A stretch of DNA of 61,920 nucleotides, filler included, from Blastocystis sp. subtype 4 (lineage: Eukaryota): NCBI RefSeq assembly GCF_000743755.1. It is 13 parts of 13 records of this genome, joined end to end, with 100 filler letters (N's around TTAATTAATTAA, not from the genome) between each part and the next. Parts side by side here need not be neighbours in the genome. Positions count along the whole stretch, not along the records: positions 43,403 to 47,747 come from NW_014569033.1; positions 47,848 to 52,230 come from NW_014569032.1; 11 more parts are not named here. One strand, written 5' to 3'. This document shows positions 4,289-59,753 of the stretch, in pieces. The notes below the pieces were generated by a model. That model ran no database searches and was not told the origin of the DNA. It was given only the letters and a program-made list of their open reading frames with translations. Both the position numbers and the translations under genes were made by a program. Numbering within the stretch: position 1 is the stretch's first letter; each line of letters starts with the position of its first letter.

Positions 4289-4440
4289 AGTAGTAGTGTT
4301 TTGACGCATGTTACGTATTTTTATTATCCAGACAAACCGTCGCAAACATGGGCCTCCAACCCTGGGTAGCTATACACGCTTAACCCTGCCCATAAACAAG
4401 CTCGAAAAGGCAGACATTTTGATCATAATTTGGAAACATA
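4289..4440 (+). mobile_element. Polinton-like element terminus, copy 1
   Basis: Starts AGTAGTAGT; 4326-4377 is 52/52 identical to 53550-53601 and homologous to the 46837 and 48041 copies. Confidence 0.7.
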
Positions 4441-4617
4441 TTCAACCCATTTCAAGTCAAATCATGGGCAACAATGAAGCACATAATCTTTGTTCTTTGT
4501 TTTATCACAATGAAACATTTTTGAGATTAATAAACAGTATGAGATTTCCTAATGATATGATTCAACGATACATTTCAGAAATGATAAGTCACCTATTCAC
4601 AAACTATCAAACAACAC

Positions 4618-9142: not shown

Positions 9143-10122
9143 TGTGATAGAGAGTCTGATGTCAACAGTATGATTAAATGATATATTTAGTTATTTTCTG
9201 TTTATTTGGAAAGAAAACTAAATGAATAGTATAAAATGAAAGAAAAGAAGGAACTCATAATGAAAAAGATAGAGAAGTGATAGTATTAAATGAGGATGAA
9301 AATACATAATCGTTGCCGAAACAGACACATAACGTATAAATCTTTCGCCTTTTACTAAAGATTTCCGTGTGTATGTTTCATTAAAGGCACATTTCGTTGT
9401 TTCTTTGCCTGATATGATCAGGATTGTTGAATTGAATTGTTGATATTGGTTTTGTTATTGAATGATGATATTAGATACAGTTGACTTTGTCTTTGAGTAT
9501 GAGAAATTGAGTATTTGAAGAGTATCAAATGAAGAGTAACAGATTTGATTGATTGTACTATTCTTAACCACAAACAGGATTACATATCATTTCTTACCAA
9601 ACCTATTCATTCGTCATCATCATAATTAAGAAAGTGATTTGTTTTCATATTCTATAATTCGATTTCATTCAATAGTAAACAAATCACTTTCGTTTATCAC
9701 AATATCATATTCTATGTGAAATACTAATTGCTCTAAAACCGCGATTCTCATATTCTCCATTTGTGGTTCCATATTATTCCTTGTAAAAGAGGAAATAGAA
9801 GTGTAAGTGGAATGAATGGATGTTGTTTCGAGGATTAGTCAAATTCGGAAACCTCAAGCTACTATCGTGGCTGATGATGACCATTCTGAGGGAATGAGAA
9901 ACATCTTCATTATTTATTCTTGAATATATCTAATGAATGTCTAGGATCTAGTAGTAGGTTTAGTTTTGTTTGTTGTGTATTATCCTTTCTATCTTATTGG
10001 CACACATTCAATCAACGATTGTAGTACTATTAATGATATCCATTTGCAGAGGGGTACTTCGATCATGAACTGTTATTCCATGAAAGAGGACACTTAATTG
10101 TAAGTGTTATGATGTAAACTTT

Positions 10123-15576: not shown

Positions 15577-18500
15577 AGTATTCCAATCACTTGACACATC
15601 ACTCTGTATCACCTTCCAATCTGTGTATTCAATCTGGAAAGGGAAATATGTTGAGAACACAGTTGATACATAGATTGGTTTCGTTCCACTGTTCATTTCC
15701 ATGATATCCAACTCCATCTCTCCAACGTCAACAGTCAGAGTGTAACCAGATCCAGCAGACCAACCATCTCCATATGAATCCTTTCCTTCCAATGTGTAGA
15801 TACCATCATTCAAACAGAAATCAACATAGTAGTAGGCACTTGCTACAGGGAATGAAGATACCGAATCCAACACAGTTCCTGAGTTTCCTCTTCCTTCATA
15901 CAGCTTCCATGAATTCTCATTGGTATAAGAATCAGCTCTGAATCGAACAGTCATCAGACTCTTGCCATCGGTACACACTATAACTCCAACCGAGATAGTA
16001 GCAGTCACATCTCCTCCAGTCACTTTAGTACCAGTGATAGTGTAGGTCTGAGTAGCACTTTCAACAGCAGCAGTACCTGAGATCCAACCAGTGTGAGGAT
16101 CCAATACAATACCAGCAGGAAGGGCAGGATTGATTCTGAAGTTCATGTAACGATCCGCATTCTCAGGAATCACTTCAGACATCTCAATATCCTTGTACAC
16201 AGTAACTGAAGCATCATAAGTGAAGTTTGGAATATCAACCATCATGTTATCAGCAAACAGATCGAGAGATTGAATTCTCCAAGCACAAGCAGAAGAATCA
16301 CCAGAACCAAAGTTCTCAAACTTGAATTGATTGTAAGGAGTGTTATTAGCCAAATAGATCTTTCTCTTCTGACCAGCAATCGAATAAGTGAGATCAGTGA
16401 CTTCCTTCAGAAGAGTCCAGTCCTCAGTACCTGTATTGCGACCATAGAACTTGAATTGAGTTGCTTTCTGATTACTATATGTTGTTGAATAGTAGTTTTG
16501 AACCTGAATCGAACTGATCCATTCACGACGATTGTTTGATAGAGTCAAAGTCAGATAGTTGGTAGAACAGGATGAATAATAGAGGTTGGTTCCGTAATAC
16601 ATATCAATTGCACTGATTGCAGTTCCACTAATTCCAGACATACTTGCCGTAAGTTCCCACAGGTGAGATTCAGATTGTTCTGAAGGCATCAAACGAACCA
16701 TTGCATCGAAATAGGATGTGGTGTAACTGTCAGCAATAGCAACAATCGCAATAGCAATCGTGTTACTTCCAGATTGAAGGAATGTTTACTGTTGAAGTTG
16801 GAACCTGTTTGCCTGGAAGAGTCACAACATTGTATATCAAGTCAGTATATGAATTGTCAACAGTGGATGAAGTCGACAAATCTCCAATCACTCCATTTCT
16901 CCATGCTTCATTTCCATTCAAATACACAATCACTCCATATTCAATCCAGACACTTCATTCAATGAGGCAATGTTGAATGTCTTCTTATACAACTGAATAC
17001 GATTTGAAGAAGTAGGGAATGATCCTCTAGCAGCCTGTTGCCAACCTGATGTATCAGCATTATGCCAATTTGTAGGCACTTCACCCATCTTATAATACCA
17101 TTGTTCTGAATCCTTGATAGAAGGACGACGAACATACACATTGTGAACATTGCTTTGATAGTTATCATATCGACCTTTCACAACCATCTCTTGCTCACCA
17201 TCAGGTAACATATAGTACATTCGATAATACGAATTAGAAGCCCAGGCAGTAGAAAGAGAATAGAATGAAATATCGAATCGATCGACAGTGATACAGACAT
17301 AATGAACCCACTCAGTGTTGGCAGGATGTGAATGACTAGACTGTATCTGATATAGAATACTATCATCAGATGAGTCACGAATACGGAAGTACTCATACTG
17401 AGGACTTGTTGTGTAACTTCGAGTGATCTTATAGAGAGTTCCCGAACAGTCAGTGAAAGCAATACTGAGAGTGGTCTGAAGCTGCAATGATCCCATTGTT
17501 GACGTAATTTGATAAGGAGTAGATGTTAACAACTGATCAGTCATACCAGAGATGATACAAGTATCGGGATCAATACTGATACCGTTAGGAAGTGCGGGAG
17601 AGATTGAACAGCCATAGTAACCGAAATCAGTAGGAGCAATATGCACCTGCTCTCGATTACGGTAGAACGAATACTGAGTCTCAGGATATTCAATAGACGT
17701 TGGGAGAGGACGATTACAAACAAGGAACTGGAGTTCATAGAGAATGATATTTCCAGACTGCGATGATTGAGCAGTAAATCGAATAAAGCTAAACTTCGGT
17801 GGCAGGGTCACCATGTCATACTGTTTCCACTGACTGGATACGTAGCCACCAGCAGTATTGACTAGAATCGTTTGCCAATTCGAAGTCGATGACTGAGATC
17901 CCTCAATCGTAAATGAGACTGGAGCATTAGTTGGACTTGAATAAGGCCAGATACGATACGAATTAATGAGTGGTATGGAAGTGCCAGTAAACTCAAAAGT
18001 AACGGTTCCAGGAGGAGTAGTGAGAGTGGCTCCACTGTTTCTGGTCCAAGAACCAGCATTGACTCCATTGAGGAATCCAGTAGCTGTAATGGTGGTGCTA
18101 GTAGGAGCAACATAACAGTTATTCTGCGTACTCAAACCAGCAAACAATGACAAGAAACTGTTGAACTGAATAATCTCTTGATAATCAGAAGTAAGAGGAT
18201 GGATTTCAACAGCCAGAACACTTGACTGAGTGACTGGCTGAGCAGAACGAATAATACCATGGTAATCAAAAGAATTATATTCTCCAGATGCAAGAGTGGA
18301 CGAACTAGGTTCTCCATCAGGCATATTATCACGATACACTTCATTTCCATTGATATAAGCTACAACACCATACCGATACTTCATCTGAAGTTCAAACGCA
18401 GCCATGTCATTAATTCCCTCGAATGTCTTACGGAAGTACTGAGTTCCAGGAGCCGACTGAGCAGAGATACCAAGAGTAACACTTGTCCAATCACTATCTG

Positions 18501-19843: not shown

Positions 19844-20075
19844 TGAATGGATCAGTTCGATTCAGGTTCAAAACTACTATTCAACAACATACAGTAATCA
19901 GAAAGCAACTCAGTTCAAGTTCTATGGTCGCAATACAGGTACTGAGGACTGGACTCTTCTGAAGGAAGTCACTGGTCTCACTTATTCGATTGCTGGTCAG
20001 AAGAGAAAGATCTATTTGGCTAATAACACTCCTTACAATCAATTCAAGTTTGAGAACTTTGGTTCTGGTGATTCT
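19844..20075 (+). repeat. ~230-bp inverted near-identical copy of an internal part of the surface-protein gene
   Basis: Reverse complement of ~16295-16525 with only a few substitutions; no flanking coding context. Confidence 0.9.
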
Positions 20076-20395
20076 CGTACTTGTCACTATCTTACAGAGT
20101 AGAAGTTTCGATTATCATAACTATTATCACATCTTCATTTTTCAACCACTGATTTCTCGATCTCTAGAACCAGTCTTGTAACTAGATTGTAGTTCATATC
20201 GAACACTCATCTCCTTGTAGCGTTATCCAATAACTCACTATTATTTTTCCACTTATATCCATTATTCCATTCGCTATATATCTTATATCATTTGGGATCC
20301 CAATTCTTATAGGAGACGAAAAGAACCAAGAAATTTCCAGAAAACTTCTTGAAAAGCATAAAGATCAACCATTGTTCCCTCATACTAAATTTTAA

Positions 20396-38741: not shown

Positions 38742-39039
38742 GATGGAATCCATAGAATCCCATCTCCTCTTCAAACAATGTTTATGAATGGAATCTACAG
38801 ATTGGAAACAATAGAAATAATGGATTAGAAGAGTTCATCANNNNNNNNNNNNNNNNNNNNNNNNNNNNNNNNNNNNNNNNNNNNTTAATTAATTAANNNN
38901 NNNNNNNNNNNNNNNNNNNNNNNNNNNNNNNNNNNNNNNNGATGGAATCCATAGAATCCCATCTCCTCTTCAAACAATGTTTATGAATGGAATCTACAGA
39001 TTGGAAACAATAGAAATAATGGATTAGAAGAGTTCATCA
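38742..39039. repeat. 99-bp exact overlap across contig spacer (assembly k-mer overlap)
   Basis: 38742-38840 is identical to 38941-39039. Confidence 0.9.
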
Positions 39040-44280: not shown

Positions 44281-46577
44281 AGAAGGAAATCAGAGATAAC
44301 TTTATCATCACTATTTGTGAATGCTTCAGTGAATAGTGGAGACAGTGAAGGATAATCACCACTAGAATATGATTATGATGATATCAAGTATCCCATTCCA
44401 TTCAATGAGCTTGTTGGAAAGAAAGAGAATCGTTATGTTGATTTCAATGTGACGAGAGAAGGTTTTCCTTCATTCCTCAACTTTGGAGTTGTTCAGCCAT
44501 CTCTCAATCCTGATAATGAATATGTAATTGTGGCAGGTGCTTCACAGAATCATATTATATCTTTAGTAAATCTACTGTATTCCACATTGTTAGCTAATCC
44601 TTATTCTCCTCTTGTCATTGTGGATTATGGCATCTATGAAGCTGGGTTGATGTATCTACTATCCAATATTACTCAGATTCACTTACTTCGGAAACAAATT
44701 GGAAGTGAATCACCTATCTATTATCGCAAATTCAACTTTGATCATTTTCCAGAATGGTGTAGAATCACTGAACCTCTCTCTGTAGGAGGTTATTCATGGA
44801 AGATTATTACCATTTTCGATGTCATCACTGAATACAAAGGAGTAGTGTTATGGGCAGATGCAGGAAGTATCGTTGGAAACATTGATAAGGATATTCGAAG
44901 TGCCAGAATGAATGGTTTCTATTCCAATTCTGCTGGACACAGTATTCGGAAATGGACTCATCCTGGTACATATCAGTATCTTGAGGAGATGAAGTGGATA
45001 TCTGTTGTGAATTCTACTAAAGACAAATGGTGTTGTAATGTTGGATATCTGATTATTGACTACAGGAATAGAACAGTGATGGAGAATATCATATATCCAA
45101 CAGTCAAGTGTTCTTTGACTAAGAAATGTATCACTCCTATTGGTAGTCATCGAAGGAATCACAGACAAGATCAATCAGTTATCTCCATTTTCGTTCAGTC
45201 CTTGGGCATTCATCAATCATGTGATCCTCAACATCCTTCATCAGTTCAGTCTCATAAGGATGATGAGAAGCATAACTATCGAATTGATATAGATGGAAGA
45301 TTCCTTCAGACATTGAAATCCAAGTACAACGTCACAATCACCAATGCTTTATATTCAACTGTGATTGGTAATGACTATTCATCTTCAAATGGTTCACTCA
45401 ATACTGTTTCTTCTGATTCATTGAAATCGAATGGTGAAATAATCCTTCCTACAGTATCACAATCTTCATTCAAACAGTCTTCAACAGAAGAGGTCTATTA
45501 TGATTGGGGTGATTCTGTTAGTCAGTATTCAATGATCTCCTGATGTCTAGATTACAATCAGAAATGTTTGGATATTCTTAAGGTGATCAAGGGTCCAAAT
45601 GACTATAAGATCTTGCATGATGGATATCCAGGAGGACTGGGACACAAGTATTGGTCTTTCCATTTAACTCTCACTTATGCTCTATTACTCAAACGTCATT
45701 TTTATAGTAGAATTGATTCAATGAATTCATTCTAGTTTATCTTCCTCTGAACTTCTGGAGGAATACTGCCAATTGTATAACAACTGATCAATCTCTTTTG
45801 ATCTCTAATAGATCCAGTCTATTCACTGGATATAGGATAGTCAGTAAAAGTACTTGTCTCAAAGCTCGTTCAATAACCTCAGTATTTGGATCTGAAGATG
45901 TGGTGACTGTTGATTGTCATATCTCAGATGGAATTCTTGGCTCCAAGTCAAGTGTACTCACATTACAACAGAATGGAATCATTTCTCCTTCAGATTCATA
46001 TTGGAATTACAGACGATATGTCCATCGGATTCTTTTCAATCCATCCATTGAACTTCAAAATGTGATTCAAAACAACAAACGATTATTGTTCACTCGGAAG
46101 TATGTTGTTGGAGTTCAAGTTCGAATGGGAGGATGTCTGGCTGATTACCATGAGAGGTCTCAAATGATGACAATGGCTCAATTGAGATCATATCCCAATA
46201 CTATTGTGAAAGTGATGAGAAAATGGAATTATGATTCAAACAACACAGTGATCTATTTGTCTACTGATTCTTCTTATGCTGAGAGGTATATTCGACAGAA
46301 GCTGGGACCAAATTATGAAATTGGAGTTGCCAAGACATTCAAACGATCCCATTCTCGGAATCTGGGTAATGATGAACCAGTGAAGAATGCTCTTGTTGAT
46401 TTGTATCTGTTAGCAGATTCAGATGTATTGATAATATGTAAAAATAGTGCATTTGGTCGAGCTGCTTTGTCAATGACACGAGCTCGACGTACTCTAGTAT
46501 ACTATGTTACTCATTCCCTTCTTACCAATTGGAATGGTACTAATGGCCTATGTGAGGTAGAAAGAGATGTCATATAG
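44281..46577 (+). pseudogene. DUF1647-like domain fused to GT23/NodZ-like fucosyltransferase domain; 5' end disrupted
   Basis: YSWK, VLWADAG, NHRQDQS; after short introns GGLGH, VGVQVRMG, IYLSTDS, ALVDLYLLADSD..SAFG; in-frame TAA at 44353-44355 and no start codon. Confidence 0.6.
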
Positions 46578-46836
46578 ATAGCGATTGTTTCTTAATAGAA
46601 GACTTACAAATGAATAATTTCATATTCTTTCCCAACACTTCTTTCTAGGGGATATCTGATTTCATTCATCTGTGGGATCTTCATACGCCAACTGAAAGTT
46701 GATACGATGTGATTCACAGTAATGTTCATAATTATCATACAAAGGATATAGGAGAGATGGTTATTGTTTGTATACAAACCAATTACTATTAGAGGCCTGA
46801 GATTATCTTGTTCAGGAGACATTGATCCTCTGTAGG

Positions 46837-46980
46837 AGTAGTCAGGTTTGACATATATCACGTACAAATTGGAAGTAGACAAACCATCACCAACATCGCC
46901 TCAATCCTGGATAGCTATACAGGTTTACTTTCGGAATAAGATCAAAATGGAAGACTCACTTTACCCTTTCGAGACATATT
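46837..46980 (+). mobile_element. Polinton-like element terminus, copy 2
   Basis: AGTAGT start, AGACAAACC..AACAT..CCTGGATAGCTATACA core, GATCAAAATGGAAG shared with the 48041 copy. Confidence 0.7.
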
Positions 46981-47057
46981 GTCGGGTGATTAACAACGAG
47001 AATTGTGTCGTTAAAGTAAATGTACTACTCAATAATCATTCAAGGTTAACCATTGAA

Positions 47058-47560
47058 TGGATTATTCACTTGGGACAATCGTTATCGTTTTAATAATCCA
47101 TTCATTACAATGATGATAGTACTATTCACACCTTCTTCAGATGCTCTACTCTCAAACCAATACTGTATCTAATGGTAAAGGAGAATCTGTTGTGTTTGAT
47201 AAAGGATATTATACTCTACCTCACATTATTGCTATGCTCAGTCAAGTGCAATACATATCATCTCAATATCCAATGCTGTTACCAGTTATGATTGTATTCA
47301 TATTGATTCCAATTGTTCAGTTGATTGCTCACAAGCACCAGATTTCATCGATATTCTGGGTCTACAGAAACAGTATATGAACAAGGAAGTAATAGGGGAA
47401 CAAACATCATTGATATCACTAGAAAGAGACAAGTGATTCAAGTTCTTCAATTGTAAACATCTGATCTTAAGATTGTCAATCAGAACAACAATCTGATTAC
47501 TACAATATCACTGATGATCCTAGTCAGATGCTTGAATACTGCTGAAGATGAAACATTCGA
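47058..47560 (+). pseudogene. Degenerate minor capsid (penton)-like gene A
   Basis: Intronless and frameshifted; VFDKGYYTL..IIAML, APDF.DILGL, NIIDITR..QVIQV, NNLITT follow the GxY / LGF / D..I.V order of Polinton-type pentons. Confidence 0.5.
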
Positions 47561-47576
47561 AAGGAGTTGTTAGTAA

Positions 47577-47747
47577 ATGAACAATAGTCTGCCATTGAGT
47601 CAATTAGTGATAAGTGCTGTTATACCAGCTGGTGAATCTCATACAGTGATAGATATAGATAAGAAATCATTTCCAGATGATATCGATTTGACTATCAATA
47701 GTGTTGTAGTGAAGATTGATACTACATCTTTGTACAATGTGAAGACA
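47577..47747 (+). CDS. 5' part of minor capsid (penton)-like gene B
   Basis: ATG 47577; 47649-47747 identical to 57435-57533, where the penton-like motifs continue. Confidence 0.55.
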
Positions 47748-47959
47748 NNNNNNNNNNNNNNNNNNNNNNNNNNNNNNNNNNNNNNNNNNNNTTAATTAAT
47801 TAANNNNNNNNNNNNNNNNNNNNNNNNNNNNNNNNNNNNNNNNNNNNTCTCCCTGGTTGTGATGATGTGTTGATTGACTCAGCTATTGCTGCTACCAGAG
47901 GAGTAATCGAGCAGTTGGAGATTATTAAGAAGAAGATTTAATGTCAGCGCTTGTGAATG

Positions 47960-48040
47960 TCTTTGTTGTGGAATCATCGAAACTGATAGTATAACAATCA
48001 CCTGACACATCACTCTGTATCACCTACCAATCTCTGTATT
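47960..48040 (-). pseudogene. Remnant of Ig-like surface protein gene cut by element insertion
   Basis: 47999-48040 aligns to 15588-15629 and stops exactly at AGTAGT 48041. Confidence 0.7.
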
Positions 48041-48501
48041 AGTAGTAAGGTTTTGATGTATGCCACATTCAAATTTGAGGCATACAAGCTGTCATGAACA
48101 TGGGCCTTCCAATCCTGGGTAGCTATACAAGGTTACTTTCGAATTAAATGATCAAAATGGAAGGCTCCCTTACTATTTCGAACCAAGTTGTTGGATGACT
48201 AATAAAAGAAATGTGTTGATATCTTCAGACCAATCTGAGTTCAAATTTGGTTTCGTTTTATTCACTATTACTAGATGAGAATTCCATCACCTTCTTCCAT
48301 AAACGTTCCAAACGATTTGAGAAATCAATATCAAGGGAATCCATTCATAATGTTAGCCATTTCTCTCAGACTCTCCAATGTTTCAGATCATTTGGGTGAT
48401 AACACAAGATAAGATTGTTGTTCAATCCTTGAGTAATACAAATAATGTAAGAATGATTGGATTAAGGGTGATACAATTACTAATAACAAATCTACACCAT
48501 T

Positions 48502-49382
48502 GTGAATGAACTATCATACATTGCTTATGATGATGTCAGTAGTACAAATGCTGCTACACTTGGTCGTCCTTATGATGGTAAACTCTTCTATAATGTGTTG
48601 AAGTTAGTTCAGAAGTCAGGATCTACTGTTGCTTATTCAACTATCAATGTCAACTTTTCAGATATCTTTGAAGGATGTTCACAGGAACGATTCATCAATC
48701 TAACGCAAATGGATGCTCAGATCATTCCTACCAATGATGATGCATATTTCTACATTAGTAATGGTAAGATCAAGACAATGTCATCTCCTACTACAAATCC
48801 TGTAGATACTACATCTTTGATAGTTGTATTCTGTGGTATCATAGTTACAAGACTGCAAATGAAGATGCATTTGATCCTGAAGATACGAAACTGGTGAAGA
48901 ATCAGATTATGACGAAAACATTCAAGATTCCTGCAAATCAAGGATTCATTGATGATCGAGTCCTTGTGAACTTCCCAATTAAGATGATGTTTATGGTATT
49001 CACAGATGATAATGGTGATTTCAGCAGTTTGAAGGATGTACGATTTAAGCGTATTGCAATGAATATTGCTGGTGAACAGAAACGTATTCTGAATGTTGAT
49101 AATGGTAATAATCCTGATGGAATTGATCATACATTCTTTGAATGGGTTGATTATCTATGCAATTCTCGTAGTGATGAATATGATACTTTGTTGACCTATA
49201 AGACATGGCGAGATCAATTCCGTGTATTTGCATTCCCTATTGCAGAATGGTTCCCACAAAGAGCTCAAAATCAGTTGCAGTTTGAGATTGAATTGGATAA
49301 TTCTGATGATAATGCTCCTAACAAGACTGAAATATTGCAGATGCATTTGATAATGATTCGTGCTAATCAGGTTCAAGCATAG
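48502..49382 (+). pseudogene. Double-jelly-roll major capsid protein-like, frameshift near 48765
   Basis: INVNFSDIFEGCSQERFI, FDSCILWY, PIKMMFMVF, FKRIAMNIAG, LLTYKTWRDQFRVFAFPI, LQFEIEL resemble the motif series of Polinton/adintovirus-type MCPs. Confidence 0.65.
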
Positions 49383-49472
49383 GTTGAATTGAGTCTGTAA
49401 GGGTTAATCCATGCAACTGAACCCATAAGGACGAACACCATAAGTTTTTACTTTGTTCTAGTAAGAAATACT

Positions 49473-49960
49473 ATGCGAATGATAGAAATAGACAATTTCA
49501 CAAAGTCAGATTTCCAACCATACAATGATGATTATGTATACATTCCTATCAAACCAAAAGTTCATCAACAACATTCCAGAAAGATAATGGATAAGATGAT
49601 TCAGAAGTACTTTAACAAAGTTGAAGAAACAGCTCTTAATCCAACTCGTGTATTTGGTAACAAATGGCAATCTTTGAAAGCCACTTATGATACTTATATG
49701 GGTCTAACACCCAATGAACGTCGAAGAGTGGATGTTTCAAATATGCGTGGATATCAATTAGCAAGAAACTCTATTCATTTGAAGATAATTGTGTATACAA
49801 TGTAACAGTTGCTGATAAGTTCAACAAGATTGTTGTTGTTTCAAAAGATCACTTATTGTCTGACACTGAGAAACGAGCTGTGTTTGATAATCCATTTCAG
49901 TTTGAGCCTATATCTCCTTATAGAATTACTTGGCCTACTTCCACCATTCGAGATATGAAA
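49473..49960 (+). pseudogene. Unknown element ORF, frameshifted
   Basis: Intronless 110-aa ORF continuing in another frame (EDNCVYNVTVADKFNKIVVVSKDH). Confidence 0.4.
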
Positions 49961-50003
49961 GATTATTGAAATCAACAAGAGTGTTGATAAGCTCAGTGAT
50001 ACT

Positions 50004-52128
50004 ATGAATACCTTTACCACCAATATGAATACTGTTATGGATAACATATCTTCAACTACTTCTGCTCTAGTAAATCAAAATGCAATGATATACAATGACT
50101 TTAAACAACAAAGACAACAACAAGAACAACAAGAGCAAAAGATATTGAATAGTAATAGATTGTATTATAATAGAGATGGATCTTATGTTAGAAGCAAAGC
50201 CCTTTATGTTCATCGAGGTAGTAAAAACTACAATACATTAATAGAACATGGTTGGAAAGAAAATGGTGATGGAACAATGGTACACATTCGTTTCATTGAA
50301 GAACCTCAACCTGTGGTTCAGAATGTTATACAACAACAAATGGATATTCAACCCCTTATTATGCAAGTGAATAATGTTGTTGCTACACTATCCACTTTTG
50401 TAGATCAAATGACGAGTCTTGATCTTGCAACGAATATTGCAGATATCCATTCTATTCTTGGAGATATAGCAACAGTAGTACGAGGAATACCTAAGAATCA
50501 ATTAGTAATGAATAATGCAATGATTAAGTCAATTACAGATTTACAGAAACAAATAACAACCATAATTGATAAACAAGTACCTGCTTTAACAGATTTGAAT
50601 AATGCTTTCAATACAAGTAGTATTATGAATAGAGAGAATCGATTTGATGAACAAATAGGAAGATTGATTAATGCTCAGAATGATTTGTTCAAGAAGAGTG
50701 AGGATACAATAGCGGCTTTACAACAAAGAATTGATCCAGGTAGAGAAGTAGCAATTGCAAATGTTGTTCCTGGAGTAGATCCAGAAGTTCTTAAAGGGAT
50801 TAATTCGATGGAATCTTTCTTCAAGTTCTCAAATCCCAATTCCTTACTTACTTAACAAAGATGTTGGATGCAAATAATGCCCTAATAGAAAAGGTGATTC
50901 AAAATCAAAACAATCAAAGTGAAGCTTTGACAACGATATCAAGAACAAATTATCATGATCTAGTAGAACAACTACAGAAACAATCGTACAATCATTTCAA
51001 TCCACTTCTAGAAGATTTGAGTCAACAATCAACAAATACTCAAGAAATGTTAACAAATCTACAAAGAGACAAATCATTTGTTAATGGATATGCAAATTGA
51101 TAATCAGAATATGCATAAGGATAACCAGAATATGATGTTAGATATGTATGATGATAACAGAAACATGTTAGGAGTTATCAATCAGAATGTTGTAAATGGT
51201 AATCAACAAAGAGATGCTCAAATGCAAATGATTAATAGTCTACAAGATCAACAATCGTATTTGAATTGGATGATGGAAAATGGACTGACTCGAATTGAAA
51301 ATAGGGCTGATCAGTTCTATCAGGATTATCTTGAATTGCAGAGGAAGATTCCTCAAATTCAGTTTACTAACAATAACATACCATTATTGGATGGTACATC
51401 AGTTAGTCAATTACTATTAACAAATGATAATTCTACTATTGCTCCTGCAATTGTTGATAAAGTGAATACAATTGTACCAGTAATTGTGGAATATGATAAG
51501 TTCAATAATGCAAATATGGGTTATATTAATGAAAGGGATGTGATTCGTGATGACTTCTTATCATTCCTCAATGTTCTAGCAAAGAATCGTGATAACATAG
51601 TACTTATGCAGAAATGTCGTTCTAAAGGTCCAAGATTCTTATTCTCCATATTTCGTTTAAGACACAATTTTCCAAAGATATCAGAGTTCTTTGTTCGTCT
51701 TGCAAATGGAGTAATAACTACAGAAGAAGAAATGGATAGCTACTTTGATTATTTCGAGAATAACATATTAAATCATTATAAAGAGAAAGCTGATATAAAC
51801 CAAATGATTGATAGTGTAATCAATAGTGTGTTGTATTCAAACAAGGTACAATCAAGATTACAACCTATATCTCAGGGGTCTGAACAGACACAACCTCAGG
51901 ATTCAACACAATCTATAGTACAATCAAGTATGATATCTAGACAATATATCTCAGGGGTCTGAACAGACACAACCTCAGGACTCAACACAATCTATAGTAC
52001 AATCAAGTATGATATCTAGACAAAGAAGACCTTTCATAGGTACAAGATTACTAACACAAAAACCTGAACAGACAGATTATAGGATTATACATACAAATAA
52101 GCAATAATCTATGAATAGAAAGAACTGA
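50004..52128 (+). pseudogene. Long Gln/Asn-rich coiled-coil element ORF broken by frameshifts
   Basis: Consecutive ORFs 50004-50855, 50861-51100 and 51078-51962 with the same Q/N/M-rich composition and no introns. Confidence 0.55.
51866..52023 (+). repeat. 79-bp tandem duplication (2 copies, 1 mismatch)
   Basis: TATATCTCAGGGGTCTGAACAG...GATATCTAGACAA at 51866-51944 and 51945-52023. Confidence 0.92.
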
Positions 52129-52330
52129 AAGTAATTTCACTTTGTTTTTCTTATTAATAAACTACACAACATGAGTATTCCATTTACAGTTGATATATCT
52201 GCATTCTATGGTGAACCCGACTTTCGTGAANNNNNNNNNNNNNNNNNNNNNNNNNNNNNNNNNNNNNNNNNNNNTTAATTAATTAANNNNNNNNNNNNNN
52301 NNNNNNNNNNNNNNNNNNNNNNNNNNNNNN

Positions 52331-53240
52331 CCTGAGACCAACCTGATGTATCATCACCAAACCAATTGGTAGGCACTTCACCCATCTTATAATACCATTG
52401 TTCTGAATGATTGATAACAGGACGACGAAGATAGTGATGATGAATATTGCCTTGATTCGCATCATATCGTCCTTTCAGAACCATCTCCTCTTCACCATCA
52501 GGTAACATGTGATACAAGTAGAAATAAGACTTAGACGGCCACAAGGAAAATGTTGAATTGAACACAACATCAAATCGATCCACATCAATATCAATACAAT
52601 GAATCCAATCCTGACTAGCAGGATGTGTATGGTTAGCTGGAACTTCAAATATCACATTACCAGTGGCTGTATCATAAATACTGAAGAATTCTGACTCAGG
52701 ACGCGATTGATAGGTTCTAACAATCTTATAATCTAAGCATTCATCTCTTGTTGATTGCAAAGGATTCATATTGATAATGGAGGAAGAAAGTGAAAACTGT
52801 ACAATTTGAACACTCTTCTCTGTCATTATGGTTTCTATCACAATGGCACCAGTCATATCTCGAATCACAATCCAAGCACCATTACTCCAACCATCATTTC
52901 CAGTATCCAGCATCTTGAGAGAATACAATGAAGAAACAGAGAAAGGTAAACACACTTCCAATACTTTTTCTTGATTATCTTCAAACAATGGAGAAGAATA
53001 CAACAACATATCTCCTCCAAAGATCTGAAACGATTCCTCCTTCGCAAATAGAAGAGTTCTTTTAGTAATATTCACATACACTTCATTAGGAGCACATTCA
53101 ATACCATAAACAAGTCCAACTAACGATTAAGAGTCATCATCAATACTACATAGTAATAATACAAGAACGATATGGCCACACATAGTAGAACAAATTCCAA
53201 CAACCACAATATAGAAGTACTGTTTTTGGTGAAGTCTTCA
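52331..53240 (-). pseudogene. Internally deleted paralog of the Ig-like surface protein family
   Basis: Aligns to the N-terminus of 16930-18960, then jumps to the YKIVRTY..LPDGEEEMVLKGRYD..EQWYYKMGEVPTNW segment; 5' end frameshifted. Confidence 0.7.
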
Positions 53241-53515
53241 TTTCTAGGTGTAATATAATAATCATAACATACCTAACTACTGAACGTGCATGATGGTTAT
53301 TTGTTCTTTGTATTACAACACCTCAATTCTCTCTTTTAGAAAGCAACACTTTATTACTTAGTCTATAACTGATTTCAATGGTATTATACTCACTTTTGGT
53401 TAGTTCAGTTTTGAAGGGAGCTGTGATACCAGAGGAACTATTATGAGACCTAAGTCTATTGAGTTTGGGAGGCGCTGCATACCTACCGAACTCAATAGAC
53501 TCACACCGTAGTAAC

Positions 53516-53601
53516 AGTAGTAATCTGATGCATGATACGTATTCTTAACATCCAGACAAACCGTCGCAAACATGGGCCTCCAACCCTGGGTAGCTATACA
53601 C
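53516..53601 (+). mobile_element. Polinton-like element terminus, copy 4
   Basis: AGTAGT start; colinear with 4292-4377, last 52 bp identical. Confidence 0.7.
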
Positions 53602-55645
53602 TGTAAACACTATAAACACTACTTAGATGCCCTAGAGGGCACTTTACGTCCATACCGTGAGGCCTCGGACTAGTTCCCGAGTAATTCTAATATCCAGTGA
53701 TTGCTTGACAGCTCATGAACCCAACCACTAGCTATTCAGGAGAATAGAGTGGTGACATCCAGCTGGGAAATCACCGATGACATCGTGGAAACATAATGAT
53801 GTCATCATCACCTTAGAGAACACAGGATCCCATAGGTGATAGAATAAGATGAATACCACAACCAAATCACAAGAGAAAGAGGTTCATACATGACAGACGA
53901 ACAAGAAAAGACAGGACAGAGCTTGAGAAGATCATGAAATCTCCTCAGGAAAATAAGAACGACAATACTTGCAGAAGGTGTTCTGTATCCTTGTCGACTG
54001 GCAACAAGCAACAGGAAGCAGTAATCCAACTTGAAAAACGAAATAGAAAAACTCCAAGAGAACAACCGAAAGGTTAAAAACTCACAGAGAAAACTCAGCA
54101 AAACAAGAAAAAGCCCGAAACGAAGGATCGAGAACCAATCCTATAAAGCTAAAGTAAGAAGTAAGGGTCAAAGACCGACCCTATGGACCAACACAATGAA
54201 CCAAGGACCAATACCACAACGAATACAAACACTAAGGACCAAGGTTCAAGAATGAGAAGCCAACACTACCGGTCAAAGACCAGAAATGAAGACCTTATCC
54301 GATATCTATCAAGACAAGTAAGAAGTCAATTCAATCACTATGGCAAGGGATGAGGACCAGGGACCAAAGCGAAGACTAAGGACGATGGATCAACCCTATG
54401 AACCAAATACCAAGATTTAAGGCCAAAACTCAAGAAACAAGGGTTACGAGTTAAAACCCAAAACCAACACTAAGATTCGAGAAACTAAGGACGAATGACC
54501 AGAACCATTGAGAATAACAATGTAATGAGCCAACTTGAAAAGTAAAGAGCCAATGTGAAGAGCTAAGGCTGGAGGGAAGCAAAGAGCCATTGATCGATAA
54601 TACAATCACGAAGCAAGGTCAAGAATGATTGGAAGTAGTGCGTTTAAGAGGCAAAGACAGGAACCACGTCGAAACAATGGAAGGCTTAAGGCAAAGACCA
54701 AGAAGCATTGAGAGCAGCAACAATAGGAGCCACGACCAAGGACATAAGTGAGGGGGGTGAAGAAACAAGGTCTAAGGACCAAGAACTAGGAACGAGATGA
54801 ATGACAATCAAGGGTGAGCGGTATAGACGAGGATGGTTGGGGATACTTAGTAGTATGGCTGGAGACGAAGAGAAGAGTTATGGAGACTAGCTGTAAGAAA
54901 AGTAGAGTCGAAGAATGAGCCGAAATTAGAGGGAGTAGGTAGCCGAGTTTTCAGAAATGAGGAGAGTTATCCCGATTTAGCCAGGCGAGTGTCTAAAGTG
55001 AAGAAGGAGTGTGGATGACGAGAACTGAAAACTGTACTGAAACCTGTAGCAAAGGAATCAAGGAGTTTCACTAGGTCCAGGACGAAGTGCCGAGTTCACG
55101 AAATGACCATTGATACGAAGCTTGTTGACTGCCAGTATTAGCAATTTGCAGTAATATGGGATTCCAGATAGGAGAAACTGCGAAGCCAAAGATCAAGAGA
55201 GATACCGATAAAGAGTTGAAATATGTTGATGATTGGATGTGGCAGAGAGAATAGAGAATAATATGAAGGAGAATAGAGTGGATGTTTGTTATAGAAGAAA
55301 AGGCTGGAGCTTTGGTATAGGAAGTATAAGACATACGAAAGAGAATAATAGTAAAGCATATGATAGGATAGTTGCAAGAAATAAGAAAAAGAATGAGTAT
55401 AAGAGTGGAGTAGGTTAGTAGATCCAGTGAAACATAATGATAATAAGTAGGGTATAAGGTGTAAGTAGATTATAAGGTAGAGTACAAGTTGAATACAGTA
55501 AACTTTACAGGTCACGTGATTGATGTGGCTGTAGACATAGTGTTATGTATGGCTTTAGGTTTGTGAATGTTGGAATGAAGTATAGGAATTGAAGATTGGA
55601 TGAATGGATGGATGGAAACTGAATCATGTGGTATTGGTTAGAATA

Positions 55646-57434: not shown

Positions 57435-57875
57435 ATAGATATAGATAAGAAATCATTTCCAGATGATATCGATTTGACTATCAATAGTGTTGTAGTGAAG
57501 ATTGATACTACATCTTTGTACAATGTGAAGACAACGAATACAGTAGTAGCTCGAAATGATTCAGGACCAAAGAATATCGTTGTTGAAGCAGGATACTGTG
57601 ATCAAGAATCATTAGAAGAGATGTTTGGTTCATATCTCACATTCACAGAAGATGGATATGCACATCCTTCTGGTCCTGCTTATGATTTAGTATTTCAACA
57701 AGTACCTGACTTGAGTCGAATATTGGGATTTGATAAGATTCAGGCAAGTGGTGTGAAAGGGAAAGAACCAGTAGATCTATCAAATGGATTGAACTGTATT
57801 CGAATCTACAGTAATCTGGTAAAGCAGATGATATCATTTGAAACAAGTCCATTAGTGGATTGTATGATCTATTCA
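57435..57875 (+). mobile_element. Isolated fragment of penton-like gene B between host genes
   Basis: IVVEAGYC, LSRILGF, PVDLSNGLNCIRIYSNLVKQ..PLV motif order; first 99 bp identical to 47649-47747. Confidence 0.65.
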
Positions 57876-57950
57876 ATTGAACAATGTGTGTTCGTTTGTT
57901 ATTCAGTATGTACTAGTTCCATTCAATTAGCAGTACTTCAAACAAACACA

Positions 57951-59753
57951 CTAGGAACGATTCTTGACTTCTCTAATAACTTGTCCTTTATCTCTAGTTC
58001 GGTCGTATGTATTTTGTAAGAGAATCAGCATCTTAATCATTATCAACTTATCAAATTTACTCAAACTGTTCAGTTCTATCACATTAATGAATGATTCATT
58101 CAACTGAATACCTTCATCCGTGAGTGATGGAATGTCTAATTCATATTCAAGCATCAATCATCACTCTCCAATTGTACTTTGCTCATGTACATGAAGCCAC
58201 TCCTATCTCCCTTGAGTAGAGTAAGAGAAGGGAGATCTAATAAATCAATCATCATTATCATTTATGCTCTTCATTATCAATTTATTTCTACTTCTATCGT
58301 AATCATCACCTTGAACGGAAGTTGATCCAAGAGTGATTGTTTCAAGTTGATTCAAATCTCATTCATCAATCATTCAATCATTCATACTCTCAAATACCAC
58401 TGAATGACACATACCAAAGGTGGACATATCTAATTGAATGGATTTAAGTAAAGGGAGATTCTTCAATTCAAATGAATCATACCAACGGAATGAATAATCC
58501 CCAAAGTGGATTTGTCTCAATTGATCACAATTCCTTATAACGCATTTGCTCCCTTCTCTTCTGCCATTCAGATAGAAACTATTCTTACCAATCTTCACAC
58601 TCCTCAGTGTATTTAACCCTTCCAGTACAAATTGACTTACTTCTTTAAAACAATCATTTCCAATTTCAACTCTCTCAATTCCATTAAGCCAAGTTGCACT
58701 AAACGAATTCAGATCATTCCCATAATCATTTTTATAACGTAGAACACCATACTCTCCTTTTATCCATCTCCCACTTCTAACCAATTCATCATTCTCATTG
58801 TACTCTTCTCCGTTTCCATCCCTCATTCCATCCTTCCATTCTCCAATATACACTAGATTCAGGTCTTTGAATTCACTTCCCTTCCCTTCTCTCTTCCCAT
58901 TCTTCCAATCACCATAATACAAGGCTCTCTTTCCATCACTCTCATACTCTGTTCCACTCTTTGCTCGAACAAATCCTTTTATAATATCTCCTTCAAATCC
59001 TCCTTCATATACTCTCACTCCATTCTCATCATACTCAATCATGTTACATGATGGATAGGGATTATTATAACGATTACCAAAACCAGTATTAGGGTTACCA
59101 AAACCAGTATTGTTAGGTAAATTCAAACCATATCCTGCCACTCCACTACCAGTAAACTCTCGAATAAGTTTCTTCTTCACTCCATTCTCATATAAACATT
59201 CTCTCTTCAAGCGTCCTGATTCGCCCTCAAAACATCTTCCATTCTTTCTCCACCTATCATCATATTCACTCACACTCAACAGTTCTCCTCCATTTACGTT
59301 GGCCTCTGAATAGAATCCATCCATTCCTTCCTTTTTTTTCAGTTCTCTGTATCGCTTTCCATTTTGATAGAATCCCCTCCATGTCACATTTCGAGAACTG
59401 TCATACTCTTCAAAAACACTGCATTCTTTCCCATGTTCCAATTCACCTCTAAGGATAGTTCGACCATTCTGTTCCTTCTTCAATACTATCCCTTCTGCCA
59501 AGTCATTTACAAATTTCAATTTCATAAACAATGTTCCATTAGCATATAGAATCAATCCATCTCCTTCTTTCTTTCCATCTTTCATATTTACTAACATTTC
59601 ATAATTAGAAGACTGATAGGATATATGGACGGTTGCTTTTCCTGTTTTTGATCCATCATCATTCTCAATCTCGACACTGCTAACCTGGAAGTCAGCTAGA
59701 AAGGAATCCTGTGGAAAACCTAGTCGTTCATTTGGAATATTTCCAGTAAACAT
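57951..59753 (-). CDS. MORN-repeat + LRR protein without TM (multi-exon, possible terminal frameshift)
   Basis: Paralog of 1843-4217: YxGxWKxGxRxGxG repeats, IGNDCF/IGKNSF LRRs, DLPSL and DIPSL exons; 21-bp NTGFGNP duplication at 59074-59111. Confidence 0.8.

What the first reader, a model, noticed from the sequence alone, without database searches (positions are those of the whole stretch)
46837..52230. Multi-copy endogenous Polinton-like (capsid-encoding) DNA virus in a Blastocystis-like genome
Seen: two contigs carry a conserved AGTAGT-starting terminus followed by intronless, co-oriented ORFs, unlike the intron-dense host genes. The ORFs include one major-capsid-like gene, two penton-like genes and unknowns. 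Related pieces occur on five contigs (4289, 46837, 48041, 53516, 57435). Established: Polintons/Mavericks and related viruses have 5'-AG termini, often with short terminal microsatellites, and encode a double-jelly-roll MCP plus a single-jelly-roll penton. Inference: this is a dispersed, decaying family of integrated viruses in a gut protist. The genes next to the terminus differ between copies, implying internal deletions or several subfamilies. No pPolB, integrase, ATPase or protease is visible here, and the two contigs are not truly adjacent.
Basis: partly seen in the sequence, partly recalled or inferred. Interest (0 to 1): 0.9.

Follow-up and report, generated by a model that had tools for sequence, protein, structure and literature searches.

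The report
Integrated Polinton-type virus of gut Blastocystis
The genome of the common gut protist Blastocystis carries broken copies of a mid-sized DNA virus with predicted capsid-shaped proteins, and almost identical unbroken versions of about 21,000 letters occur in gut samples, so this protist likely hosts a still-spreading integrating virus of a kind reported once before.

Summary
Confirmed. The window is a set of unlinked Blastocystis (likely ST4) contigs. 48505-52230 is 97.6% identical to the middle of an intact element of about 21.6 kb found in metagenome contigs. The intact 425-aa capsid protein folds as a double jelly roll and the 227-aa family as a penton. Intact copies add a PolB-like polymerase, an rve integrase, and a likely ATPase and protease, with inverted termini of about 220 bp starting (AGT)3. 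Eight pieces of the family are annotated in the long-read BT1 genome. Both relics in the finding are chimeras of an old end and a young capsid-gene piece; the 48505 junction is real DNA in two other runs. Intact-virus contigs are about 3 to 17 times deeper than single-copy flank in three runs. A Blastocystis MELD virus with this gene set was reported in 2021 and a 71%-identical capsid is deposited, so this is a new member of a known kind. It does supply the host link that a 2026 review called uncertain. Particles, expression and target-site duplications are not shown. The scan had no earlier finding on this sequence.

The parts
46837..47016 (+). Old, diverged terminus (right-end type) starting AGTAGT, with the conserved core at 46901-46921
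   Evidence: 75% to 48032-48216 over 187 bases; core search; followed by the gene that lies next to the right end in L003
47017..47560 (+). Decayed 5' part (about residues 1-185) of the 1019-aa penton-domain gene; several frameshifts
   Evidence: 79% nucleotide identity to L003 21257-20693; tblastn in different frames; domain aligns with the 227-aa penton family
47577..47747 (+). Residues 1-57 of the 227-aa penton-like gene of a second lineage (P0001 family), cut by the contig end
   Evidence: 98% to P0001; only about 32% to the 227-aa gene of L003; fold
47748..47847 (.). Artificial N-linker between two unlinked contigs
47968..48040 (-). Piece of a high-copy host gene family into which the 48041 end is inserted
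   Evidence: paralogue at 15577 runs on without the element at exactly this base; very deep contigs over this stretch in 4 of 4 runs
48041..48504 (+). Old, diverged terminus (left-end type) plus decayed start of the 163-aa gene
   Evidence: 70-77% to L003 522-821 with many indels; host-terminus junction bridged with 0 differences in X1, X5, X8
48505..49382 (+). Major capsid protein gene, residues 129-425 only, 13-base deletion after 48814 shifts the frame
   Evidence: 100% to P0158 over residues 238-425; indel list; double jelly roll for P0158
49473..52107 (+). Broken copy of an 868-aa gene of unknown function (N/Q-rich, coiled-coil-like); four frameshifting indels, four in-frame deletions, 79-base tandem duplication at 51866-52023
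52171..52230 (+). First 20 codons of a 326-338-aa gene with repeated Gly-Gly-Ala motifs, likely a protease-processed core protein (role recalled by analogy)
   Evidence: 100% to L003
4289..4617 (+). Young left end of the intact type: (AGT)3 start, inverted repeat to about 4475, lacking 36 bases after 4387, then the first gene
   Evidence: 97-100% to L003 1-297; deep contig begins exactly at 4289 in X1; join to the right end in X8
53513..53618 (+). Solo terminus remnant, followed by unrelated sequence
   Evidence: 85% to 4292-4398; no further match to 40 loci
57435..57881 (+). Fragment (about residues 25-173) of the 227-aa penton-like gene between host genes; decayed
   Evidence: 7 changes in 147 residues against P0001, 2 at nearly invariant columns

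Best explanation
These are broken, integrated copies of a Polinton-type (MELD) double-stranded DNA virus of Blastocystis, likely subtype 4, whose intact form of about 21.6 kb still exists and likely spreads by integrase-driven insertion and protein-primed copying from its inverted ends, and is predicted to build an icosahedral particle. Shown: the relics, their near-identity to intact elements, the gene content of those elements, pieces in a chromosome-scale Blastocystis assembly, and purifying selection on the capsid gene. Predicted: double-jelly-roll capsid and single-jelly-roll penton. Inferred from Polinton biology: integration by the rve integrase, replication by the PolB from the termini, packaging by the ATPase, maturation by the protease, host RNA polymerase in the nucleus. 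Inferred for the relics: a young copy landed in or recombined with an old terminal remnant, and deletion then removed most of it, leaving old end plus young capsid piece.
For: MCP: AlphaFold pLDDT 91; Foldseek best hit Sputnik MCP, E 1e-13, TM 0.58; VIA Z 21.0, rmsd 3.8, 315 aligned to a PBCV-1 capsid chain, top 16 rows all capsid or scaffold proteins of this virus lineage. Penton: pLDDT 81; top 6 Foldseek hits mavirus penton, E 7e-8 to 1.5e-6; VIA Z 11.9, rmsd 4.9, 218 aligned. Intact loci L002, L003, L006 are 99.3-99.5% alike over 21 kb and carry rve integrase (Pfam E 6e-11). The polymerase orthologue in L008 hits DNA_pol_B_2 at E 3e-15. An X8 contig joins left-terminal sequence (4406-4475) to the sequence upstream of the right-most gene of L003. 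Eight BT1 proteins of the family lie on 7 contigs of 0.48-2.05 Mb. MCP dN/dS 0.04-0.18 in 13 of 18 chosen pairs; 1 saturated, 4 too close to judge. Junction contig 47917-48567 has 0 differences in X1 and X5.
Against: No target-site duplication was seen, and the flanks of the intact contigs were not read. The polymerase hit came from 1 of 5 aligned members; L003's own protein has no PolB hit. The A32 ATPase hit is weak (E 0.0035, below cut-off) and the protease-like ORF hits no library. Penton TM-scores are low (0.35-0.41). The folds are of intact homologues, not of the broken window products. No particle or expression data. The small deletions beyond 48567 were not seen in the listed contigs of 4 runs (contigs drop rare variants), so they rest on this assembly alone. 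The inverted repeat rests on one contig join with a 12-base overlap plus about twofold depth.
Confidence: 0.9

Rival explanations
1. The element is Polinton-type but now lives only as a transposon: many recent integrated copies, no particles.
For: Depth excess of 3-17 times fits several integrated copies; several distinct flanks meet the terminus; L003 and L006 contigs run about 1.3-2.5 kb beyond the estimated ends (lengths). PMC8097293 (passages) notes that Maverick particles have not been seen.
Against: Capsid gene is open in 19 of 19 full-length copies examined and under purifying selection; 83 capsid clusters with shuffled gene order between lineages fit a virus population better than single-genome transposons.
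Confidence: 0.35
2. It is a virophage-like virus that needs a giant helper virus and may defend Blastocystis.
For: Best solved-structure hits by Foldseek are Sputnik and mavirus MCP and mavirus penton; mavirus also has PolB plus rve integrase (recalled).
Against: Identity to virophage MCPs is only 8-11%, and VIA ranks PBCV-1, faustovirus and ASFV chains as high or higher. The egovirus preprint (passages) found no gene flux between gut giant viruses of that group and Blastocystis.
Confidence: 0.1
3. The chimeric relics are assembly artefacts, or the viral DNA comes from a contaminant and not from Blastocystis chromosomes.
For: Short-read contigs with 99-base overlaps; the virus is deeper than the host, which invites misjoins; X1 or X5 could be related to the window's source.
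Against: Same junction in two studies with 0 differences, host-terminus junction in a third; exact empty-site paralogue; family pieces on megabase contigs of a Nanopore and Hi-C assembly. The 47577 and 57435 junctions were not tested against runs.
Confidence: 0.04
4. The 227-aa penton gene (P0001 family) has been domesticated by Blastocystis ST4.
For: 408 member sequences, many full length, mostly on contigs of about 1 kb, with no virus-length contig among the 15 listed; 11 of 14 full-length variants keep all 17 nearly invariant columns; open frame beside a heavily decayed neighbour at 47017-47560.
Against: Most related clusters are fragments of mixed length; the 57435 copy is truncated with 2 changes at invariant columns; relatives at 55% identity lie on 27-30 kb contigs, as expected for a second virus lineage.
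Confidence: 0.08

Closest known systems
Blastocystis MELD virus of Starrett et al. 2021 (PMC8502044, section 3.4 read; named 'Blastocystis MELD virus 3996' in 10.1101/2022.05.25.493380, one passage)
   Same: Same host genus; PolB plus integrase plus virion proteins with no recognisable sequence similarity to known ones.
   Different: Its sequence was not seen (supplement held only in part), so whether it is this virus or a relative is untested. The section read gives no endogenous copies, termini, subtype or copy number.
'MELD virus sp.' UniProt A0A8S5L5M3 (BFVD)
   Same: 420 aa, 71% identical to P0158, TM 0.95: same capsid family.
   Different: Listed as uncharacterized protein with no host; a different lineage at 71%.
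Mavericks/Polintons and adintoviruses of animals (PMC8097293, passages)
   Same: (AGT)2 terminal motif, inverted termini, intronless genes, PolB, integrase, ATPase, protease, two capsid types; most copies decayed, some intact.
   Different: Capsid not alignable by sequence; several penton-domain genes; 1602-aa polymerase; host is a stramenopile; 6-bp duplication not shown here.
Virophages (mavirus/EMALE, Sputnik; PMC9952930, passages)
   Same: Fold of MCP and penton; size range; integration in a stramenopile genome.
   Different: 8-12% identity; shorter MCP (425 aa); no helper virus known; marker-profile test not available.

Membership tests
Maverick/Polinton-type endogenous virus | Double-jelly-roll major capsid protein | tested here: met
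   Predicted fold of intact homologue P0158, 100% identical to the window over residues 238-425
Maverick/Polinton-type endogenous virus | Single-jelly-roll penton | tested here: met
   P0001 model matches mavirus, adenovirus and Sputnik pentons; low TM-scores
Maverick/Polinton-type endogenous virus | Protein-primed family B DNA polymerase | tested here: met
   Absent from the window; in intact loci. PF03175 E 3e-15 for the L008 orthologue, 58% identical to L003's; 1 of 5 members hit
Maverick/Polinton-type endogenous virus | Retroviral-like (rve) integrase | tested here: met
   Absent from the window; L003 7460-8476, PF00665 E 5.8e-11, above cut-off
Maverick/Polinton-type endogenous virus | A32-like packaging ATPase | tested here: inconclusive
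   Walker-like motifs by eye; Pox_A32 E 0.0035, below cut-off, for the L027 orthologue only
Maverick/Polinton-type endogenous virus | Adenain-like cysteine protease | tested here: inconclusive
   About 140-aa ORF with His, Asp, Gln, Cys in the expected order (pattern recalled); no library hit
Maverick/Polinton-type endogenous virus | Terminal inverted repeats starting 5'-AG / (AGT)2 | tested here: met
   (AGT)3 start; one X8 contig joins the left-terminal sequence to the right end of L003; about twofold depth over the repeat in X1 and X5; motif as in PMC8097293. No single record with both ends was read
Maverick/Polinton-type endogenous virus | 6-bp target-site duplication | tested here: inconclusive
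   Flanks were too few and could not be paired; both flanks of one insertion were never in view
Maverick/Polinton-type endogenous virus | Integrated in the host nuclear genome | tested here: met
   Host-terminus junctions; BT1 contigs of 0.48-2.05 Mb
Virophage (PMC9952930 criteria) | Hits to the virophage-specific MCP, ATPase and protease profiles | not testable with these tools
   Those profiles are not held; structural identity to virophage MCPs 8-11%
Virophage (PMC9952930 criteria) | Dependence on a giant virus | not testable with these tools
   Needs culture experiments
Blastocystis MELD virus 3996 (same species) | Sequence identity to the deposited genome | not testable with these tools
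   Supplement cut at 4 million characters; no hit for the host name in the part held

The most novel reading that the evidence does not exclude
Blastocystis hosts a large, still-replicating family of particle-forming integrating DNA viruses (at least 83 capsid clusters, two genome sizes near 21 and 28 kb) whose load differs several-fold between infections, and the host disables integrated copies by an indel-rich process: the window's copy has more small indels than likely neutral point changes. This would be the first well-founded DNA virus of the commonest human gut eukaryote and a hidden variable in its disputed effects on health.
Probability: 0.35. Interest if true: 0.75.

Novelty: new member of a known kind. 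Interest (0 to 1): 0.5.

Why it matters
Blastocystis is the most common eukaryote of the human gut (PMC10690189, abstract passage). A 2026 review (PMC12835684, passages) treats its viruses as unresolved: two old microscopy reports of virus-like particles, and the 2021 metagenomic genomes whose source it calls unclear. Copies joined to host genes settle the host for this family. A survey of protist genomes screened 10 Blastocystis assemblies, yet the name appears only in its list of screened genomes in the supplement part held (PMC10120064; Table S5 is cut), so the family may have been missed there because the capsid is so divergent. Intact copies at several times host depth make a direct test possible: do ST4 cultures release particles, and does viral load track strain behaviour?

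Tried and rejected
No whole genome is held for the window, so genome-wide pairing of termini was not possible. Pfam and PHROGs gave nothing useful for the window's viral ORFs; a baseplate-hub hit (E 1e-6) on the N/Q-rich coiled coil is judged compositional. IMG/VR: no relative in 4 scans. GTDB genomes: nothing in 2 scans. PDB sequence searches and a phage tblastn with the polymerase found nothing. Microhomology at the six deletions of 6 or more bases is not above chance (sum 8 against mean 4.9, p 0.16), so microhomology-mediated repair is not supported. The MCP tree is the quick version only, with long-branch warnings; it is used only to say that P0158 groups with the BT1 protein (38 chosen proteins). 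Rfam found only a U5 snRNA elsewhere. The Atlas gave unnamed viral clusters and some Capsid_N clusters, a lead only. Literature searches listed no paper on endogenous Polinton-type copies in Blastocystis; the library lacks most subscription journals. The 30-nm particles of the old microscopy came with dsRNA in one report and are probably too small for this virus (size expectation recalled), so I do not equate them.
Full report
Setting. The window is 13 short contigs joined by N-linkers; the finding spans the end of one (to 47747) and all of the next (47848-52230). Homologues named in NCBI come from Blastocystis sp. BT1, an ST4 strain assembled with Nanopore and Hi-C (PMC10690189, passages). 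Of 24 listed runs, 16 hold half or more of the words of 46600-52230; 10 of these are labelled mouse or rat (gut) metagenome. ST4 is therefore likely, not proven.

Terminal motif. Four places share a core found 4 times in the window and never in 100 shuffles, 64-68 bases behind an AGT-repeat start. For 48041 the boundary is fixed independently: a paralogue of the flanking host gene at 15577 matches up to 48040 and then runs on without the element. Contigs with 0 differences bridge this junction in X1, X5 and X8. (AGT)2 is the commonest Maverick end motif (PMC8097293, passage).

Capsid gene. The C-terminal piece found 17 relatives among 1.84 billion representatives. A profile of 7 of them found 83 clusters among 2442 candidates. 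P0158 (425 aa) is 100% identical to the window over residues 238-425; its cluster has 105 members, among them a partial BT1 protein on a 2.05-Mb contig. With an 84-row alignment the model has pLDDT 91 and matches double-jelly-roll capsids: Sputnik E 1e-13; PBCV-1 chain Z 21.0, rmsd 3.8, 315 aligned. In BFVD the top hit is an uncharacterized protein of 'MELD virus sp.', 71% identical.

Penton genes. The 57435 ORF and the 47577 start belong to a 227-aa family (P0001). It aligns with the 227-aa gene and with the N-terminal domain of the 1019-aa gene of the intact element. Its model (pLDDT 81) matches mavirus penton first. Relatives at 55% identity lie on contigs up to 27-30 kb, which points to a second, larger lineage that I could not read.

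Intact element. A metagenome scan gave 40 loci (41 of 81 pattern matches confirmed); 9 of 40 are labelled human gut metagenome, the rest bear accession names only. L002, L003 and L006 hold 21 kb of open genes on both strands and are 99.3-99.5% alike. They encode an rve integrase, a 1602-aa protein whose orthologue in L008 hits DNA_pol_B_2, a P-loop protein with a weak A32 hit, a protease-like ORF seen by motif only, the capsid and penton genes, and unknowns. Gene order changes between lineages. Window 4289-4617 is the left end of this type. An X8 contig follows 4406-4475 and then runs into the sequence just upstream of L003's right-most gene (table 7), and contigs over the repeat are about twice as deep as the interior in X1 and X5. 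I infer inverted repeats of about 220 bases and a length of about 21.6 kb. Capsid genes are open in 19 of 19 full-length copies examined (of 40 loci), with dN/dS 0.04-0.18 in the 13 informative of 18 chosen pairs.

Anatomy of the relics. 48505-52230 equals L003 10388-14101 at 97.6-98.3%, with 21 substitutions, 9 deletions of 1-18 bases, a 1-base insertion and a 79-base tandem duplication. It lacks the first 128 capsid codons. In front of it, 48041-48504 is only 70-77% like the left end of L003. The join is real: one 651-base contig, 47917-48567, has 0 differences in X1 and X5, though one of these could be related to the window's source. The 46837 relic has the same build: an old end and a 79%-identical, frameshifted gene piece, then a 98%-identical start of the P0001 gene; this join was not tested against runs. 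L040 shows a third, independent end-plus-capsid-fragment relic. The simplest account, which is inferred, is nested insertion or recombination at old termini followed by deletion. Of 14 substitutions private to the window against four intact copies, 9 are synonymous (p 0.0004 against a neutral share of 0.20), so most arose while the virus was active. That leaves about 5 or 6 later point changes against 11 indel events. Microhomology is not enriched. The indels rest on this assembly alone.

Abundance. In one search the intact-type contigs have depth 172-224 against 22 for the junction contig in X1, 51-68 against 4.1-4.6 in X5, and 10-11 against 2.8-3.8 in X8; X12 lists no single-copy flank. The tool warns that contig depth is not copy number, and each baseline is one or two contigs. 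Read cautiously, intact copies outnumber single-copy DNA by about 3 to 17 times and differ between samples. Many integrated copies and free replication both fit.

Relation to what is known. PMC8502044 (section 3.4 read in full, other passages, supplement held only in part) reports Blastocystis MELD virus sequences with PolB, integrase and virion proteins inferred by HHpred. PMC12835684 (passages) calls the source of those genomes unclear. PMC10120064 (passages and supplement search) screened 10 Blastocystis assemblies; the name occurs only in that list in the part held. PMC9952930 (passages) defines virophages by profile hits that I could not run. Searches listed no paper on endogenous copies. 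Supplements I could not see (the sequence files of PMC8502044, the rest of Table S5 of PMC10120064) could lower the novelty. The scan's own index had no look-alike.

Verdict. Observation confirmed and interpretation supported. It works like a Polinton and meets six defining features tested; ATPase, protease and target-site duplication are inconclusive. New member of a known kind; interest 0.5, higher if particles or targeted inactivation are shown.

Noticed in passing
window 47987-48075 and 15577: In X1 and X12 a contig joins a reversed 48041-type terminus to the same host gene family at 47987/47988, 53 bases upstream of the 48041 site (tables 5, 8); the window contig at 15577 begins at exactly the paralogous base. 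Either a second insertion in a paralogue (possible target preference) or a 53-base flanking direct repeat.
   Followed up: partly
L002 1-191: An otherwise intact copy lacks the left terminal repeat; its first 191 bases match neither the window nor the other loci.
   Followed up: partly
L003 15001-15435: The protease-like ORF has no in-frame ATG where the L027 orthologue starts.
   Followed up: no
L040 576-1000: Independent relic: right-type terminus, start of the 1019-aa gene, then a reversed capsid fragment; its flank resembles window 58002-58492.
   Followed up: partly
window 38742-38840 and 38941-39039: Two neighbouring contigs overlap by 99 identical bases, an assembly-graph overlap.
   Followed up: no
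window 16285-16525 and 19844-20084: 241-base inverted duplicate (97.5%) of a piece of a long intronless surface-protein-like gene; same family as 52332-53126.
   Followed up: partly
window 45717-46577: Host gene with a NodZ-like fucosyltransferase hit (Pfam E 1.6e-7) just upstream of the 46837 insertion.
   Followed up: no
window 9312-9423: U5 snRNA gene.
   Followed up: no
window 53620-55000: Stretch of 43% G+C with no long ORF behind the solo terminus; no match to the 40 loci; possibly another mobile-element remnant.
   Followed up: partly
proteins P0053, P0057, P0059, P0061, P0063: Much more distant capsid lineages (23-42% identity) on contigs up to 20-26 kb; hosts unknown.
   Followed up: no
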